A DNA stretch of 64,000 bases from Octopus sinensis (lineage: Eukaryota). Below are positions 42,799-59,906 of the stretch, piece by piece. The stretch is from positions 113,336,001-113,400,000 of the forward strand of contig NC_042998.1 of the NCBI RefSeq assembly GCF_006345805.1. Reading direction: 5' to 3'. Positions within the stretch are counted from its first letter, which is position 1, and every line of letters begins with the position of its first letter. A program made the translations under genes and the position numbers. Below the pieces are notes generated by a model, which had not been told where the DNA came from, ran no database searches, and saw only the letters and a program-made list of their open reading frames with translations.

Positions 42799-42840
<42 letters not shown>

Positions 42841-43040
42841 ACAATTATTCGGTAACCATGATAAAACTCCGAAAAGCTTGGAGTTTTATCATGGCTACCG
42901 AATAATTGTCACATATTATATTTACAGATAAATTCCTCTATTTACAAAATATCGAAGTCTCTTTCAATCTTTTGTTGTCTTGCCATTTCTATCAATATAT
43001 ATATATAATGTACTATACCGTGAAAGAGATTTTAAAAAAA

Positions 43041-43125
43041 GCATGATATATAGTTTGTGTCTGAAGAATATGTTTCAGTATTTCTAAACATATGAAACTA
43101 TTAGTAGCACTTAAAGACATTGTGC
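43041..43125 (+). ncRNA. Type I hammerhead ribozyme within a ~145-bp TA-flanked mini-element
   Basis: CTGAAGA 43061-43067; stem II ATATGTTT/AAACATAT; GAAA 43094-43097; stem III ACTA-T-TAGT; GUA cleavage after 43106; stem I GTGT/GCAC plus GCATGAT/ATTGTGC. Confidence 0.8.
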
Positions 43126-43262
43126 CCTTTGAATAATTTATCTGTCTTTCTGTATATATGCCAATAGAATAGATATATGGCTTAAATAAAAAATGTACTG
43201 GGGTGGTGATTTGTTCAGCTAAAACTCTTCAAGGTGATGCCTCAGCATAGCTACAGTCCAAT

Positions 43263-43322: not shown

Positions 43323-44127
43323 CTGATTTGAAATTGTTCATTGTGCAAGTAAGCTGTAAAAATTGTATCTTTACTAAAACTTTAAATAGATTATTTCACA
43401 ATATCTATAACTATAAAGTCTCTCTTTTGCACTCACACATGGTTATATATACAGCAGACATAGAATGCCTTGAAAAAGGATAAACATATAACTATTTACA
43501 ATTATAATCACAAAATCAAGGCACGGAACTCTTTCTGCTGATGAAGCTTTTATGAAAGCTATAAATTTTTTAATGAGATTCTAGCCAGGTACAATATTAA
43601 ATTTAGTGAAATTATTAACCTTTCAATTACTATAGACCCAATGGTGAAAGTAAATAGGCCAGCGTTGCATACGTATCATCACTTTGATTATACGTGATTT
43701 TATTGATTTGTTTGAGAGTTTAGAATATTGATTTCTAACATAGACAAACAGCCACAAATTGTAGGAGAAGAGTTTCTCTCGATTGACTTGATTAATACTT
43801 TATCGATCCCAGAAGGATGAAATGTAATATCAGCCACAACAGGACTTGAACATAAAGACCACAAGATATTTGCCTTACACTACTGGTTTCTGCAGGTCCA
43901 CCACCTTTTGAATATTGTAATTTACTTGCAATATTCTCATTCATGGTCCAGAGCTTTTTTTTTTTTTTTCAATACTAGAAAATATTTCAGATTTAAAACA
44001 GATGGTGATCATTTACATTAATGTATGCTGACCATTAATAAATGTAATTCTGTAAGTGGCTGTGTGTGTGTGTGTATATATAGTGAGTGTGTGTGTGTAT
44101 GTATGTATATACATATATAGCTTATGT

Positions 44128-45455
44128 GGTGGGAGGAACTGTCTAACACAGCTCCTCCATCACTTTGATGACATCTTAAATGCACTAAGTGAGGGCTCCA
44201 ATGTGGATGTCATACACCTCGATTTCAGCAAGGCCTTTGACAGAGTCAACCACAATATACTGTTAAGGAAACTATCCAATGCTGGAGTCGGTGGAAAGCT
44301 ACTTCAATTGATTAGGCATTTCCTAACAAAGAAGACCCAGCATGTTGTGGCTGATGGCAACTACGCAAGTCCAGCAAAAGTCATCAGCGGAGTCCCGCTG
44401 GGTACTGTGCTGAGTCCACTTCTTTTTATTGTCTATATCAATGACATTGCAGATTCCATTGAACATAGCACCATTAAAATATATGCAGATTACTTTAAGC
44501 TCCAGAAAGTCGTTAAGAGAGCATATGATTGAACACTGCTTTAATTGGACCTATGTGCAGTAACCCAGTGGGCACAAAAAAACAATATGCAGTAGAACAA
44601 GGAAAAATTTGAGCTCATCCACTTTGGAAATGAGAGCACACTCAAACAACCATGTACACTACCGTCAGGAGACCTACTTGAACCGTCGGATAATATCAGA
44701 GACTAAGATGTAACTGTTGACAGTAACCTTAGCTGGAGTGTGCACATCAACAAAAAAGTCGATGTTGCCCACAGATTGTGCTCATGGATCCTCAGAACTT
44801 TTCAATCTAGGGATCATGAAACCATCATCTTTCTCTTCTCCACATTTGCTAGGCCCCACCTTGAATACTGCTGCCCATTGTGGTCTCCCTACAAAAACAA
44901 GACATAATGAGGATCAAAGTGCCACAAAGATCAATCACAAAAAAATAAATGGCATGATAGGACTTGATTATTGGGCTTGACCTAAACAGCCGAAGCTCTA
45001 TTCTCTGCAACGCTGCCGTGAGCGATACATTATTTGTACCATGTGGAAAATATTCCACCACTATTATCCAAATGATATCAGTATTATGTTTACAATTCAC
45101 CCAAGACTAGGCTCCCATGCAATGCGTCCCCTACAAAGGTCGAGATCACATCACATAAGAACATTGCGACACAATTTCTTCACTGCAAATGGTCCTGCAC
45201 TTTTCAATGTTATCCCGAAAGAGATTAAAGTCGAAAAAGACACCACAACTTTCAAATGGTACCTGGACAAATTCCTCCAGGGAATACTGGATAAACCACC
45301 TACACCTGGATATGTCTCAACTAACAACAACTCTCTGCTTGAGTGGTCCATAGTGTCCTGAAATAATTAACTAAAAGACTTTTCCAGGTGGTGCTTTTGA
45401 GTTAATCATGGCCTGGGCTGATAATGGCTGAAACTAATGTAAGTTATCTTCTAAG
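44128..45455 (+). mobile_element. 5'-truncated, decayed CR1/L2-group LINE
   Basis: DVIHLDFSKAFDRVNH, SGVPLGTVLSPLLFIVYINDI, YADY (mutated YADD), RPHLEYCCPLWSP, NFFTANGPALFNVIP; stops and frameshifts. Confidence 0.88.
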
Positions 45456-45672
45456 TTCATCATCATCATCATCATCATCGTTTAACGTCCGTTCTCCATG
45501 CTAAATATAACAATTGCAGCATGGAAGGTGTTTATAAGCCATTTAAGAAACACACAAAAACCGTTAGATTCACTTCAACATTTAAATTTAAATGCAATTG
45601 TTTTCGTTCTATATATATATATATATATTACAGAGATGTAGTTGCATAGCAAGTGACCTGGTCTGAGATCAT

Positions 45673-48264
45673 GTGCTAGAGAACGAAGATCTAAAATCGA
45701 ACCAGGCAGCAGCATCGTCCGAATATTGTGGGCTTTTTAAATCAATGAATACACCGCCACCTAACCCAAGACTGAAGAAGTTTGAGGATGACTTGTGGGA
45801 CATCGTAAGGAAGATTAAGTTCAGGAAGTCACCCAGAAGAAATGATCACCTCAGATACCTAGATAAAATTACCAAGGATATTAATAGATCGGATGGAGTC
45901 CTGGTCCAGTCCGACAAGACCAGGAACACATACAAGTTACCCATTAAACAGTACCTAGATTTACTCGGAAAAGAGATCAAGAAGAATTATAGAACAACTA
46001 ATTGGAGTACATTGAGGAAAGTAAACTTGGAGATTAAGGAAATAATGTTTAAATACGGAATTCAAATGAGAACGCAGCCGCTTAGCCCTAAGCAACCTAG
46101 ATTTATAGTGAAGGACCATAAACCGAATTTCTACACCAACCCAGTGTTAAGACTCATATGCCCTGCTAGTTCTGATATCGGGACCATCAGTAAGTACATT
46201 TTAGATAAATATATCCCTAGTTTAGAAAACAAGCTGAAGCTTAGCCTCTGGGCTAACTCCTCGCAGGTAGTGAAGTGGTTCTCTTCCATCCCAAATAAGA
46301 ACCGTACTAGGTTTATTCAGTTTGATATCGCCAGCTTCTACCCCTCGATTAACCCTAGTGTACTAAATAAGGCCCTTTGGCATGCTCACAACAAGGCAGG
46401 CCTCACTAGAGAAGAAATTGATATTATTTTAGTTGCCAGAAAATCATTTATAAGGTTTGAAAATAAGTTGTGGATTCGTAAAGATACTCCCAATGAATTC
46501 GATGTGCCTATGGGTAGTTCGGATAGTGCGCAGATAGCCGATTTGGTCGGAATCTATATTCTCTACGAATTGTCCGACCAATTCCCGGATATCGCGGGCG
46601 GCCTGTATCGGGACGATTGTCTGTTTTACCTGCAAAACACCACGAACAGAATCGTACAGAAAACTAAGAATAGGTTAGCTAGGTTCTTTAATAGAATGGG
46701 CATGAATATAGTTTTTGATAATGAACTCACCAAGGCTAATTTCCTAGACGTTACACTAAACCTCCATAGCGATTCATACTGCCCTTACCATAAGCCTTCC
46801 ACTAATTTGAAGTATGTCAGTGTCTTCTCCAATCATGCCAAAACCGTAACAGACAATTTGGTTAAAAACATCTCTCTAAGATTGTCTAACTTGTCCGCTA
46901 GTGCCGACATTTTTATGCAGAAAGCGGAATTTTATAACGCCGCACTATCCAAAGCCGGTTATAGGCAGAAGGTAGTATATATTGATCCAGCCTTTCCGAT
47001 GCCACCATTCGGTCATCAGGATAGGGCCGTCTATAATAACATAAACAATTTAAGTAGTGACAGGAGCGCGGGGAGTGTTGGAGCAGGTACTTCCAGATTT
47101 AATTTAGGGAACAAAGATAATTATCGGTCCGGGGGAGTTCACACTAAACCAAAACCCGTTATTCATCCTATAATCACCCACCCTAATGTTAGAGCTGGCT
47201 TCCCGACCCATCACATAAATAGGAATAAGCATATATGGTTTGTAATTCCCTTTGGTAAGCAGATTAGAACTAACCTTCCCCTCCTGTTTCGACAAGCCAT
47301 CGCCAGTAACTTCCCCAGAAATTCCAAATATTACTCCACGGTTAATTCGCATAAAGTTAGGATAGCTTTCTCCAACACAAAAAACCTTTCCCAGATAATC
47401 GCCTCCCATAATAATAGGCTGCTTATTAAGACCCTACCACCTTTGTCCGGAGGCGCAGCTCCGTCCGCTCCTAGTTTAACGCTCAGTAGGAATAATAATA
47501 GTAGTAATAATGATAAGAGAGCCAGTACAGTGACTGATAATCTCAGTACCAACCAGGGATTAAATACTAGGTGTAACGATAGAAGAAATGGTGATGTCAT
47601 TAACGTTAGTAATGGCAATAGTGAGGTGAGCGCAGCTCGGGTCATTAATGTAGAGAGTCCTAATAGCAACTCCAGCATCGTTTCCGGCAATAGCAGGCCC
47701 GCGGATACTAGCAATTACAGCGCTCTCAGTGATAGGGAAGACTCAGGGGTTAGTCCGTTAATTAATAGCGACTTTGAGGAATATAAAGTAGTAAGCGGCC
47801 GCAGTTCTCGCAATCAATATAGTAACAGTAACGCAGTTCTAATTTCAGAAGCTAATCCCAATAGAATAAGGTTCTTGTCGAGTAACTCCAAGATCAGAAA
47901 TGCCATTTACCAATGTAAGGTTTACACGGACTCAGATGTCTACTCGTATGTCGGGGCCTCATCGTCAGAATTGGCCTTGCGAATTTCCAACCATTTCGCA
48001 ACTTTTCGCGACGTGAATAAATACCAAGCTACGGGACTTAGCAAGCTTATATGGCGTTTGAAGAACGCGAACTCAGGGTTCAGGCTGGAATGGTCGATTT
48101 TGTCGGTGGCCCTCCCATTTGATAGGGGCAGAAGGAAGTGCAATCTTTGTGTCTCTGAGCTTTTCCACATATTGTTCGCCAGAGACCGGTTGGTAAACGG
48201 ACTTTTACAGTCGGCTTTTCGATGTCCCCATTGGCGGCGTTATACTTACCTTGCTTATAAATGA
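45673..48264 (+). CDS. PLE polyprotein: reverse transcriptase + C-terminal GIY-YIG endonuclease (open 863 codons; first ATG at 45745)
   Basis: SDKT (PLE DKG-like motif), FDIASFYPSI, PMGS, YRDD (46606-46617), FLDVTL; AIY (47902)..YVG (47947), R, CNLC (48139), E, N, CPH. Confidence 0.93.
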   Translation: MLENEDLKSNQAAASSEYCGLFKSMNTPPPNPRLKKFEDDLWDIVRKIKFRKSPRRNDHLRYLDKITKDINRSDGVLVQSDKTRNTYKLPIKQYLDLLGKEIKKNYRTTNWSTLRKVNLEIKEIMFKYGIQMRTQPLSPKQPRFIVKDHKPNFYTNPVLRLICPASSDIGTISKYILDKYIPSLENKLKLSLWANSSQVVKWFSSIPNKNRTRFIQFDIASFYPSINPSVLNKALWHAHNKAGLTREEIDIILVARKSFIRFENKLWIRKDTPNEFDVPMGSSDSAQIADLVGIYILYELSDQFPDIAGGLYRDDCLFYLQNTTNRIVQKTKNRLARFFNRMGMNIVFDNELTKANFLDVTLNLHSDSYCPYHKPSTNLKYVSVFSNHAKTVTDNLVKNISLRLSNLSASADIFMQKAEFYNAALSKAGYRQKVVYIDPAFPMPPFGHQDRAVYNNINNLSSDRSAGSVGAGTSRFNLGNKDNYRSGGVHTKPKPVIHPIITHPNVRAGFPTHHINRNKHIWFVIPFGKQIRTNLPLLFRQAIASNFPRNSKYYSTVNSHKVRIAFSNTKNLSQIIASHNNRLLIKTLPPLSGGAAPSAPSLTLSRNNNSSNNDKRASTVTDNLSTNQGLNTRCNDRRNGDVINVSNGNSEVSAARVINVESPNSNSSIVSGNSRPADTSNYSALSDREDSGVSPLINSDFEEYKVVSGRSSRNQYSNSNAVLISEANPNRIRFLSSNSKIRNAIYQCKVYTDSDVYSYVGASSSELALRISNHFATFRDVNKYQATGLSKLIWRLKNANSGFRLEWSILSVALPFDRGRRKCNLCVSELFHILFARDRLVNGLLQSAFRCPHWRRYTYLAYK

Positions 48265-48861
48265 TACCTAAGACAATTAGCACCTTGTTACCCTACTAAA
48301 ATGAAAATAATCCTTGGAAATAATTTTTGAAAAAGCTTTTTAAGAAATATATGAATAACCCTTGCAAGGGGAAATTACTCCCATTAGGCGAATGGTGGTT
48401 TGTTTTGGAAGCAAACGCTGGAATTTTATATACCCTTAGGATTCTTTGACGACGTTAATTTTTTGACAAGCAGGCCTAGACGAACACACGAACACAAAAA
48501 ATATTTTCTGCTGCCTGACGAATTTTTCAGCAGTGACCATTATGTAGCGCCTTTTACCAACATACGGCCGCGCACACATAGGCCAGTACACACATACATG
48601 CTTCTAGGTAGTTTTTGTCTCGCCCCCCAAAAATACACCCAGTATTCTTAAAATATTCAGAATTTTAGTTTTGGTCACACAGAACATCTCCACACCCCTT
48701 GCTCTCACCTACTGGATTTGACCGCCGCCTGACCTGTAAATATCTTCAACGCACCCACCATCCGATTTCAACGTACATTGATAAACAGTTCAGCCATGGG
48801 CTCTTAAAGAGCCTCCTCGTTCAAATTGCTTTGCTGCGCCTCTGTTCTGTTTTGTTCTGCC

Positions 48862-48979
48862 AACGGAATTCCTATTTTTTCCTGACGAGAAAGCCACAAT
48901 ATGGTATCCTTATTTAATCAGAATTTGGAAAATTGTGGCTTTTGAAACATGTGTAGAATGCAATAAAAGGAATTCTGTT
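48862..48979 (+). ncRNA. Type I hammerhead ribozyme in the PLE 3' (pLTR) region
   Basis: CTGACGA 48882-48888; 12-bp stem II GAAAGCCACAAT/ATTGTGGCTTTT; GAAA 48944-48947; minimal stem III ACA-TG-TGT; GUA cleavage after 48955; stem I TTC/GAA plus AACGGAATTCCT/AGGAATTCTGTT. Confidence 0.88.
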
Positions 48980-49012
48980 CAATCTTCGTTCAACTCCATT
49001 TCTTCAATTCAC

Positions 49013-56481: not shown

Positions 56482-57054
56482 TTAATTTCTGTTGTTATTG
56501 TTAACTGCAATAATTTGTTCGGTGAGCCAGCTAATCCCTTCACTAACACCATCACCAGTCAGTGCGTTACTCGAACAGATATGCCACGCTCGGATCTTAA
56601 GTTGGTCTAATCCTAACAGTTCGACGCATTTCAGTTTGGAAATGGAATCTCTCATATCCATCTTGTTAGCATAAAACAGCAAAGGGACGTGGCGGTTCTT
56701 GATATGTTGGTGTGTGAGTAAATGATCCAGTTCATCTTTAGCAACAACCATCCTTAAGAGGTCACTACTATCGATGACGAAGATAATACCATGGCAATCC
56801 TTGTAGTAATGTTCCCATAGACTACGATAGCGACCCTGGCCTGACATATCAAAGGCCGAAAACGACAAAGATTTTGTTTGAAATCGTTCCACATTAAAAC
56901 CAACAGTCGGGACAATATCCTGAGATCTTATGTCCGAAGGTTTAAGATAGTTTAAAATTGTACTTTTACCACTATTATCCAAACCGACGACTAAAATATT
57001 AGCCTCTTTCCGTTTCAAGCCGAACCATCGAGCAAGTGTATCTAATATTCCCAT
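56482..57054 (-). CDS. ARL6: ADP-ribosylation factor-like protein 6 (BBS3), single coding exon, 190 aa
   Basis: MG start, GLDNSGKST P-loop, ARL6-diagnostic FDMSGQGRYRSLWEHYYKD, NKMD, CSSNALTG; complete ORF. Confidence 0.95.
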   Translation of the reverse strand: MGILDTLARWFGLKRKEANILVVGLDNSGKSTILNYLKPSDIRSQDIVPTVGFNVERFQTKSLSFSAFDMSGQGRYRSLWEHYYKDCHGIIFVIDSSDLLRMVVAKDELDHLLTHQHIKNRHVPLLFYANKMDMRDSISKLKCVELLGLDQLKIRAWHICSSNALTGDGVSEGISWLTEQIIAVNNNNRN

Positions 57055-59906
57055 AATTAACTTTCAAAGAGAGAGATAAAACAGATTTCATATATTATAA
57101 ATTTGTTATAGACGATATTCCAGAAAACTGTCGATTAAACACACAATTCAACAGTTCCATTAACCAATCGTAAGTAGCACAGTCTAAAGTATCAAAACCA
57201 CTCCTGTAGCCATATGATGCTACTTTAAAGTTCGTTACTAAGCACCAATAAACAGTCCCGGGACGATCAACATATCAACAATAAGTTGGAAAATTGTAAT
57301 CAAAACCATTAAAATACCTTTGAAAATTATTATTTTAATTTTTAATTAATATTAGAGTTATATTTAAACCCTTTCTAAACTTATTTAAAACTTTTCAGAG
57401 AGTTTAATTGTTTGTTGATTTTACATGAGATTATAATTATTACCCGACATTCTTCAGTCGTGACCTCTGCATGTCAAGTTGTTATTGTTGTTCTGTAGTC
57501 CTAAGTCACCTCTGGCACACATGTCAATTGAACTTCTAAGTGCGTAAAATAAATTCTTATGTTCCATGTAATGTAGAGGTAAGATCTCTCCTACACCTCT
57601 GAAGCGAGACCGCAATCTGGTTTCGATTCTTGGTTATAATTATTTTATTCCATTTACGTCATAAATATCTGCGAAGGACAGCAAACAATCTATCTCCTTG
57701 TCTGTAAACCTGGGGTTTATGTAAAAAGTTAGTTATATTAAATATTTTAAAACAATACTTTTCGAGGTGTCTTTGAGATATATTTTGATATTGTTTTTCC
57801 AATATGAAACCAATGTTTTTTTAAAAATCTTTATTAAAAATATGAGGTAAGGGAAATTAAGTGGACCAATGGCATGAATATGTTAAGTGGGGATATACTG
57901 CATGCCATACGTAAAAAAATACTCGATAAATTAAAATTTGCTTGTTTTAGTTCAAGAAAGAAAACGAAAACCAAACGGTAACGGGTTTTTTCCCCCGTCT
58001 CTTATTATCTAATCCTTTGGTTATTAGCATCCAGTGTATACAGACCCTTCTCATTACTGAGTCCTACATTTATTCGTTGAAAGTTCTTTATTTCATTGAA
58101 TTACGCATCAATTTCTAGTACAGTCTGCGTTACTGATGACTCGTTTCATATCGGCTATCTCGCCAGAGAATAAACAAAGAATGGGAATGTGAGGATATCG
58201 CCCAAAGTATACTATGCAATACGAACTTTCGAGTCTAATTTTCATCCATGGTAGCTAATTTTATTTCCAAGTATTGAATACAATCCAGTGCTTTCTTTAC
58301 TTCTGTCGCCATTATCAAGAATACCATTCCATGTTGTCACTAGACCCTTTAAAAATAGCAGTAAAGCCTCCCTTAAACAACGCCCAACCTTTAAAAAGAA
58401 GTAAGGACATATTAAGTAACGTAGTCTTATTCCTAAAAAAAAAAAAAAAAATACACGATTTTATCTGGAATGCTTTTTATCATGGATCTGCTATGATCCT
58501 TGATTAGCCCCAGACTTGACTGGAGTTAAATAATACTTTACTTTTGAATGTACATAATCAGCCTTCTCATCATTCATTAAAAAAAAATTATTAATTTTGT
58601 TAAAGCTTAGTTGGAAGCAATGCAGTACATATAGGCCTTCCTCAAGGCCCCTAAAACTACTGGGAAGAAAAGTTATCCTCAGGCCAGCAACTTGGTGGAA
58701 ATACAACTGACTGGACTCTGCTACAGGCATCTAAAGGCTTGATGGTTGCGTTAAATTTGGTGATGGATAAGATCTACCATTTAGACAGGTAGGGCCTTTT
58801 CAATAAGCTTTCATGTAGTTTCTAGTAACTAAATTTACTTGGATCAAACCCTTCTATCTCACAAAAGAAAGGACACACTGAACAATGCGGTATTAGATTC
58901 ACAAAATAAGATCATCACAGATGGATTGCTTTTGATTATGTTAAATCAGGGCTGATCTGGGTTTAAACAACAAGAACAATAGACACAAAACTGCTAATTT
59001 TATATCATATATTGCACAAACCACATTCACATTATTGAAATGTACAACAACGGGGTTATGTGAGGGGCAGAGTTTGCTATCATAGCAAGCATTTCAGCCT
59101 GCCACTGCCATGACATATATTTAAATTTGCAACACTATCCCACCCACTTAGTCCAGAAAACCACAAAGATAGTAGCACCAATAACTTTATTAGCTCCATG
59201 TTGTGCTGGTATGCACACTTCAGTGGAAATTTCAGAATAACAACTGTTGTACTCTGAACAAGCCCATTTCCACTGTGACAATTATCAGAATCTTCAGACT
59301 GAAAGTGTGTCCATATTAACACACTGCCCTACATTCTATGTCAGTGTGTGTAATATGGTCCTCTCTCAGAGACATAGTATTTCTGAAGCATTGGATCTGT
59401 TGATTAGACATAATCATTCAACTAATTAATTTTATGAATAGGATCATAGCTCAATTAGGACCAGAATTAGACTAAATGAGATGCAGTTTGGGTTTGTGCC
59501 AGAGAAAAGTACTATGGCCTGCCATCTTCCCAGTGTGACAACTGCAGAAGTATCTAACCAAAAGTAAACCATTGTACTTAGCATTCATTGACCTGGTGAA
59601 AGCCTTTGACAGAGTTACTTGCTCTGTAATCTGGTGGTTTCCAAAGAAGTTAGGTGTAGACAAATGGTTTGTTAGAGCTGTACAAGCCATGCATAAAGGT
59701 GCTGTCAGTAAGGTGAGAGTCAGCTATAAGTACAGTGATGACTTTCTTTAGTAGGAGTTCATTAGGGCTGGGTTCTCAGTCCCTTCTTATTTCTCCAGGC
59801 CATAACAGTTGAATTTAAGACTGGTCTGTGGGAGCTACTATTTGCTGATGACCTCACTCTTATGGTGGAATTTGTAACAGAAATGGAAAAGAAATTCCAG
59901 ATACAG

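What the first reader, a model, noticed from the sequence alone, without database searches (positions are those of the whole stretch)
43008..43152. Stand-alone ~145-bp hammerhead-ribozyme mini-element in TA repeats
Seen: a complete type I hammerhead with both core boxes, a perfect 8-bp stem II, a self-complementary stem III (ACTATTAGT), a GUA cleavage triplet and a bipartite stem I. TA runs flank it (42995-43007, ~43153-43158), and it has no coding sequence or sequence similarity to the PLE hammerhead at 48862. Known: non-autonomous hammerhead retroelements (retrozymes) and solo pLTRs exist, and PLE hammerheads with short palindromic stem III can act as dimers. Inference: a possibly undescribed retrozyme-like or solo-pLTR family mobilised by PLE machinery.
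Basis: partly seen in the sequence, partly recalled or inferred. Interest (0 to 1): 0.8.

Follow-up and report, generated by a model that had tools for sequence, protein, structure and literature searches.

The report
Truncated Penelope-like retroelement stub with hammerhead
The hammerhead ribozyme motif is really there, but it is the broken-off 3' end of a decayed Penelope-like retrotransposon with hundreds of copies, likely inactive at this spot, and not a new stand-alone ribozyme element.

Summary
The type I hammerhead at 43043-43119 (+) is real, but it is not a stand-alone element. At least 209 genomic places carry an exact 21-base piece of it. In 59 copies chosen only by that piece, 5' ends run from 40 to over 1,500 bases upstream of the cut site, and none forms a short tandem array. 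The longest copies run into a broken reverse transcriptase plus C-terminal GIY-YIG ORF with the Hydra-clade motifs; the ribozyme sits about 190 bases after the stop codon. So the locus is a two-armed, 5'-truncated Hydra-clade Penelope-like insertion in (TA)n. Its stem III is identical to that of published Penelope-1_HM. This copy has a G.U at the base of stem I and a 4-base deletion in the distal helix. Two extras: 28 of 28 two-armed insertions carry the ~66-base tail on exactly one arm, and 17 of 59 5' ends fall at the ribozyme's 5' edge, which is why such stubs look like mini-elements. Verdict: new family of a known kind.

The parts
43007..43042 (-). Inverted arm: the last 36 bases of the element's 3' tail (about +66 to +102 from the ribozyme cut site), its 3' end facing left into (TA)n
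   Evidence: Aligns to the tails of 4 of 4 natural copies tested; 5 of 5000 shuffles reach the score against one of them; same build at L179, L199 and L020
43043..43136 (+). Direct arm: 5'-truncated PLE 3' end from -63 to the short end (about +36); may reach 43143
   Evidence: 46 matches from 40 scored of 853 candidates; continuous with RT and GIY-YIG coding DNA in L061/L062
43061..43067 (+). Hammerhead core box CUGAAGA
   Evidence: sequence; descriptor hit
43068..43093 (+). Stem II (8 bp here; 7 bp + bulge + 3 bp in most copies)
43094..43106 (+). GAAA box, 9-nt palindromic stem III and GUA triplet; predicted cut after 43106
   Evidence: self-duplex -4.9 kcal/mol against +2.1 as a hairpin; same 9-mer and cut base as Penelope-1_HM in File S2 of PMC8557442
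43043..43060 (+). Stem I 5' strand; proximal GTGT 43057-60 (family GTGC or GCGC); the distal helix starts at 43043 in intact copies
43107..43124 (+). Stem I 3' strand; proximal GCAC, distal part with a 4-base deletion after 43118
42995..43007 (.). (TA)n target, shared with a neighbouring PLE stub of another family (42837-42995)
43153..43159 (.). Short TA run on the right flank

Best explanation
This is a 5'-truncated, two-armed insertion of a decayed Hydra-clade Penelope-like retrotransposon whose ribozyme-bearing 3' end was likely copied into a (TA)n run by the element's own enzyme, and it is likely inactive today. Shown here: the stub is the 3' end of an RT + GIY-YIG element; genomic ends fall at two fixed places, about +36 and +102 from the ribozyme cut site; the stretch between them (the tail) is also the start of the element's 5' region; two-armed insertions carry the tail on one arm only; this locus has a tail-only inverted arm and a short-ended direct arm. 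Inferred: the template was a read-through (tandem or circular) RNA not cut at this ribozyme; the GIY-YIG domain cut both strands of (TA)n; each DNA end primed reverse transcription at one of the two internal sites; both cDNAs stopped early (after 36 and about 100 bases) and were joined head to head. Inferred: in the parent RNA the ribozyme was silent as a monomer and cut as a dimer through the palindromic stem III, or with help from the protein. Inferred: the copy has since decayed neutrally.
For: Upstream walk from the stub to 2.2-kb copies encoding RT and endonuclease. Hydra motifs RWK, DKT, CxCx5C, CxxC-E-N-CxH as defined in section 11 of PMC8557442. Pieces align to an intact 708-aa sister ORF (42% and 38%, E 5e-33 and 3e-19) whose Atlas neighbours include GIY-YIG and RVT_1 clusters. 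5' ends continuous from -40 to beyond -1500 in 59 copies. One tail in 28 of 28 two-armed loci, 14 on each side. Tail continues into 5' region and ORF in L064 and L065. Two other families end at +35 to +43 or +103 to +110 (16 copies). Two internal start sites bounding the tail, cutting of both strands, use of uncut RNA and a protein-assisted ribozyme were shown in vitro for the anole PLE (PMC11167929). Stub-specific damage to stem I.
Against: Pfam gave no RT or GIY-YIG hit for any of 5 pieces or ORFs tried, so domain calls rest on motifs, pairwise alignment and Atlas neighbours. No tree against named Hydra proteins was built. No unbroken ORF of this family was seen among 150 scored of 6156 candidates. 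The tail is 66-70 bases, not the 30-40 described. No significant covariation within the family. No cleavage or expression data for this locus. One of 38 pairs in a wider, biased set had no tail on either arm (L048).
Confidence: 0.93

Rival explanations
1. A non-autonomous retrozyme or solo-pLTR family of about 145 bases, amplified as its own unit by PLE enzymes.
For: 17 of 59 5' ends cluster at -56 to -75, so ribozyme-sized stubs are over-represented. Retrozymes derive from PLE pLTRs (bioRxiv 10.64898/2026.07.22.740005).
Against: Ends inside the cluster are spread over 20 bases, and many of them join an inverted arm; no short head-to-tail array in 59 loci (two duplications include flanking DNA); 3 of 1770 pairs reach 95%; the first 36 bases are an inverted tail found as such in only 2 of 59 other loci.
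Confidence: 0.03
2. Same origin, but this stub is still a working ribozyme that cuts a host transcript running through it on the + strand.
For: Both core boxes, stem II, stem III and the GUA triplet are intact.
Against: G.U at the first stem I pair, broken distal helix, and competing folds: proximal stem I pair probabilities 0.00-0.01 (99 nt) or 0.15-0.47 (156 nt) against 0.9 or more in 4 of 5 other copies. No second ribozyme of this family in sense nearby for a dimer. Single PLE minimal hammerheads did not cut in vitro (PMC4209133).
Confidence: 0.04
3. The inverted piece arose by fold-back of one cDNA or by a later rearrangement rather than by two priming events.
For: In most two-armed loci the arms overlap, and arms are slightly more alike than random copies (0.87 against 0.85).
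Against: Here the arms do not overlap (+66 to +102 against -63 to +36), so neither can be a copy of the other; the strict one-tail rule (28 of 28) is not expected from random rearrangement.
Confidence: 0.1

Closest known systems
Hydra clade of Penelope-like elements (Craig et al. 2021, PMC8557442), including Hydra-1_Obim and Penelope-1_HM
   Same: Short single-ORF element, C-terminal GIY-YIG, RWK, DKT, CxCx5C linker, CxxC and CxH motifs, (TA)n targets, hammerhead near the 3' end; 17 of 26 Hydra rows in File S2 have a 4-bp + 1-nt palindromic stem III, 2 of them this very 9-mer with cut base A.
   Different: Stems I and II differ from all 26 listed motifs, including Hydra-1_oBim (read by eye), so this family is not among those listed; tail 66 bases rather than 30-40; no unbroken copy seen.
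Poseidon-Ac (PAc) of the green anole (Frangieh et al. 2024, PMC11167929)
   Same: Two internal start sites downstream of the hammerhead bound the tail; AT-rich targets; template need not be cut by the ribozyme.
   Different: Penelope/Poseidon clade; its ribozyme overlaps the ORF start, here it lies about 190 bases after the stop; the paper saw no strand difference in start site, whereas here each two-armed insertion uses one site per end.
PLE minimal hammerheads (Cervera and de la Pena 2014, PMC4209133)
   Same: Long stem II, short proximal stem I, small palindromic stem III, mostly single motifs from truncated PLEs, close pairs on opposite strands.
   Different: This family has a 3-4-bp stem III and a predicted 10-bp distal stem I helix.
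Non-LTR retrozymes of animals (PMC7229834; bioRxiv 10.64898/2026.07.22.740005)
   Same: Type I hammerhead, non-coding at this locus, PLE ancestry.
   Different: Retrozymes are tandem repeats with a defined monomer, expressed as small circles; here no arrays and no defined monomer.

Membership tests
Type I hammerhead ribozyme | CUGANGA and GAAA boxes with a UH cut site, stems II and III closed, stem I open | tested here: met
   stem III only 3 bp as a monomer
Type I hammerhead ribozyme | Match to an Rfam hammerhead model | tested here: not met
   no hammerhead family at gathering score or at E up to 10; the PLE hammerhead at 48882 is missed as well
Type I hammerhead ribozyme | Stem covariation | tested here: inconclusive
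   63 copies: 91.8% of cells paired against 91.6% shuffled; 2 of 29 pairs with double changes, both at CpG-prone stem I sites. Across families stem III stays palindromic with A-U/C-G exchange
Type I hammerhead ribozyme | Self-cleavage | not testable with these tools
   needs an assay
Hydra-clade PLE | Single ORF with RT and C-terminal GIY-YIG, element under 3 kb | tested here: met
   broken ORF in L061/L062/L064/L065 collinear with intact 708-aa sister ORF; about 2.7 kb from tail to tail by adding L064 and L061 coordinates; Pfam silent
Hydra-clade PLE | RWK and DKT motifs | tested here: met
   RWK in L065 and L066; DKT in L061, L062
Hydra-clade PLE | CxCx5C linker; CxxC and CxH either side of conserved E and N | tested here: met
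   L061 translations
Hydra-clade PLE | Insertion into (TA)n and hammerhead near the 3' end | tested here: met
Hydra-clade PLE | Groups with Hydra RTs in a phylogeny; CCHH motif absent | not tested
   no named reference proteins were held
PLE insertion structure | 5' truncation, inverted 5'-truncated copy, tail at one end | tested here: met
   tail 66 bases, longer than the 30-40 in PMC8557442
Non-LTR retrozyme | Head-to-tail tandem repeats with a hammerhead in each unit | tested here: not met
   0 of 59 loci within 1.5 kb each side; TRF finds no array at the locus
Non-LTR retrozyme | Defined monomer length and shared boundaries | tested here: not met
   continuous 5' ends
Non-LTR retrozyme | Abundant small linear and circular RNAs | not testable with these tools
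   only assembled contigs of runs guessed to be RNA were served

The most novel reading that the evidence does not exclude
Hydra-clade PLEs integrate with a two-headed machine: an RT-endonuclease dimer on an RNA pair held by the palindromic stem III primes one DNA end at about +36 and the other at about +102 from the ribozyme cut site, a spacing kept by three families with unlike sequence, and the folded ribozyme marks a drop-off point, so that the genome fills with ribozyme-sized stubs, the raw material of retrozymes.
Probability: 0.15. Interest if true: 0.6.

Novelty: new member of a known kind. Interest (0 to 1): 0.2.

Why it matters
The locus itself is ordinary repeat debris. Its value is as a marker: it warns that lone PLE hammerheads in (TA)n are usually truncated insertions, and the family gives two countable constraints on the poorly understood PLE integration step (one tail per two-armed insertion; fixed +36 and +102 ends in three families). 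The same genome holds young sister families with unbroken 708-727-aa frames, so these constraints could be tested in vitro.

Tried and rejected
Rfam scans: no hammerhead hit. Whole-stretch folding: no signal. Pfam on five PLE pieces or ORFs: nothing informative. Covariation within the family: not above shuffles. Pile-up of 5' ends at the cut site, as a trace of cleavage in vivo: among 30 copies chosen by their 3' part, 1 starts at the site (L087) and 1 is unclear (L091), read by eye; no support. Two-template test: arms of 38 inverted pairs are mostly of the same subfamily; 2 look discordant by eye (L024, L108); mean arm identity 0.87 against 0.85 background; cannot tell one RNA from two. The 5'-end cluster was weaker in two other samples (3 of 30; 4 of 27 partner arms, both by eye). 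Sequencing runs: no RNA holder listed; contigs of five runs guessed to be RNA were laid on this locus or on a sister copy and show only family-level matches; not used as evidence. Earlier findings of this scan: none. No protein homolog search result was obtained, so named relatives were not checked. The organism was not determined; 'octopus' and 'cephalopod' were used as paper search words on a recalled likeness of the repeats, untested.

Full report
Observation. A descriptor that I wrote found this site and the one at 48882 in the window, against 0 strict and 2 loose hits in 60 shuffled windows. Rfam has no matching hammerhead model, and the whole 145 bases fold no better than shuffles.

Copy number. 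The genome (G000, 2.72 Gb, an animal by its repeats; organism not determined) gave 853 candidates, 40 scored, 46 matches at 75-95% apart from the locus itself. An exact 21-base piece of the core occurs 209 times, control 0. Of 33 ribozyme arms in loci picked by upstream DNA, 11 carry that piece exactly, which gives roughly 630 arms, a rough lower figure.

The stub is the end of a longer element. Matches covered only bases 38-156 of the query, and most copies ran on upstream. Walking upstream reached two copies alike over 2.2 kb (83%), with broken frames that match the window's PLE protein at about 31% in both RT and endonuclease regions. The ribozyme lies about 190 bases after the stop codon. 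The frames carry DKT, a CxCx5C linker, CxxC-E-N-CxH and, in the 5' part, RWK: the features that section 11 of PMC8557442 gives for the Hydra clade. Two pieces align to an intact 708-aa sister ORF at 42% and 38%; that ORF's nearest Atlas clusters are unnamed, with GIY-YIG and RVT_1 clusters further down. Pfam is silent on all five pieces tried. File S2 of that paper lists 26 Hydra hammerhead rows; 17 have a 4-bp + 1-base palindromic stem III and two (Penelope-1_HM, Penelope-18_HMa) have this same 9-mer and cut base; none shares stems I and II with this family (read by eye). Among 150 scored of 6156 protein candidates the close copies (65% or more) had stops or short frames, while sister families at 43-53% have frames of up to 766 aa: the family looks extinct.

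Anatomy of this locus. Family copies end either about 36 or about 102 bases after the cut site and then run into (TA)n. The 66 bases between are the tail; in L064 and L065 the same tail continues into the 5' region and the ORF, so the template ran through the ribozyme junction. Window 43007-43042 is the last 36 bases of that tail, inverted. The direct arm starts at 43043 (-63) and ends at 43136-43143. Both 3' ends face outward into TA, which explains the flanking runs. The arms do not overlap, so neither is a fold-back copy of the other.

Unbiased sample. I fetched the first 62 places listed except the window itself and one partner arm lying in an already fetched locus (60 loci), and dropped L183 as a 99.6% duplicate of L182 with flanks, leaving 59. 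Their 5' ends run from -40 to beyond -1500 without a shared boundary. None is a short head-to-tail array; two duplications (703 and 1507 bases) include flanking DNA. Three of 1770 pairs (59 copies plus the window) reach 95% over 55 bases outside the selected piece; the window's best is 85%. This rejects a discrete or young mini-element. Twenty-eight loci have two arms; all 28 carry the tail on exactly one arm, 14 on each side (L162 and L172 are borderline calls, L201 was missed by the script but fits). L179 and L199 are built like the window. In a wider, biased set of 38 pairs one had no tail (L048). Sixteen copies of two sister families with unlike sequence end at +35 to +43 or +103 to +110.

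Why stubs look like mini-elements. Seventeen of 59 5' ends fall at -56 to -75, around the 5' edge of the predicted ribozyme domain (-63), against 3.6 expected; 6 of 20000 constant-rate simulations reach that in any 20-base window (L177 was moved by hand to -138 because an insertion interrupts it). The cluster was weaker in two other samples (3 of 30; 4 of 27), so it is a lead. The fold or the U-rich tract just upstream could each cause it.

Does it cut? Untested. Within the family pairing is kept in 91.8% of cells but covariation is not above shuffles, as expected for copies that decay after insertion; one stem I pair switches U-A to C-G between subfamilies (31 and 11 copies), at a CpG-prone site. 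Across families stem III stays a 9-base palindrome with a free centre and an A-U to C-G exchange at positions that cannot pair within one molecule; it is stable as a duplex (-4.9 kcal/mol) and not as a hairpin (+2.1). This favours dimer action in the parent, as proposed in PMC4209133. In predicted folds of undamaged copies L025 and L086 the stem III strand pairs with the core box, an off state for the monomer (the program does not score tertiary contacts or magnesium). The window copy has a C>T at 43060, G>A at 43050 and 43052, G>C at 43076, C>A at 43086 and a 4-base deletion after 43118; its proximal stem I is poorly populated. It is most likely dead.

Mechanism. PMC11167929 showed for an anole PLE that the protein cuts both strands of AT-rich DNA, starts reverse transcription at two internal RNA sites that bound the tail, uses uncut RNA, and assists the ribozyme. 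The genomic pattern here fits that and adds that each end of a two-armed insertion uses a different site. PMC8557442 already notes that the tail is often at one end only. Whether one RNA or two serve as template could not be told.

Novelty. A new family of the known Hydra clade; the locus is an ordinary truncated insertion. Six paper searches turned up no description of this family, of a strict one-tail count or of the 5'-end cluster; the library lacks most subscription journals, and Repbase and Dfam were not searched. Papers seen: PMC8557442 passages, section 11, a supplement search and part 2 of 59 of its supplement; PMC4209133 abstract and Results; PMC11167929 parts 1-2 of 4; bioRxiv 10.64898/2026.07.22.740005 parts 1-2 of 5 (its supplements were not seen and may list related families); PMC7229834 and PMC13282606 passages only. 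Hammerhead numbering and the name ARL6 are recalled.

Noticed in passing
window 42837-42995: A second two-armed PLE stub of another, younger family sits directly left of the finding and shares its TA run: inverted short arm 42837-42870, direct tailed arm 42878-42995, truncated inside stem III. 1073 candidates, 95-97% alike; relatives carry a hammerhead with stem III ACTCGGAGT and one links to the intact sister ORF at 93%.
   Followed up: yes
window 45667-49012: An 865-codon stop-free frame of a third PLE family (DKT and CxxC..CxH motifs, apparently 5'-truncated) with a hammerhead at 48882 (12-bp stem II, 8-base palindromic stem III) ending 58 bases after the cut site in (TA)n.
   Followed up: partly
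L113-L132 (G000): Two young Hydra-type families with unbroken frames of 708-727 aa; one has a roughly 1-kb 3' region and a hammerhead with a 2-bp stem II, the other a C at core position 4 in place of U. Good material for in vitro work.
   Followed up: partly
L113:+1..+25 after the cut site, and the finding's family tail: A 15-base stretch (TTTTGTTGAATTTTC) is shared by one sister family just after its cut site and by this family's tail, although the families are otherwise unlike; possibly a protein-binding site.
   Followed up: no
window 44056-45361: Broken LINE-type RT fragments (Pfam RVT_1, E 9e-15) between the stub and the long PLE frame.
   Followed up: no
window 56482-57063 (-): A single open frame of 193 codons for an Arf-family GTPase (Pfam Arf, E 9e-52), by recall ARL6-like, with no intron in the frame.
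   Followed up: no
L024 and L108: The two arms of these inverted pairs carry different subfamily markers, which would fit two template RNAs but also later gene conversion.
   Followed up: partly
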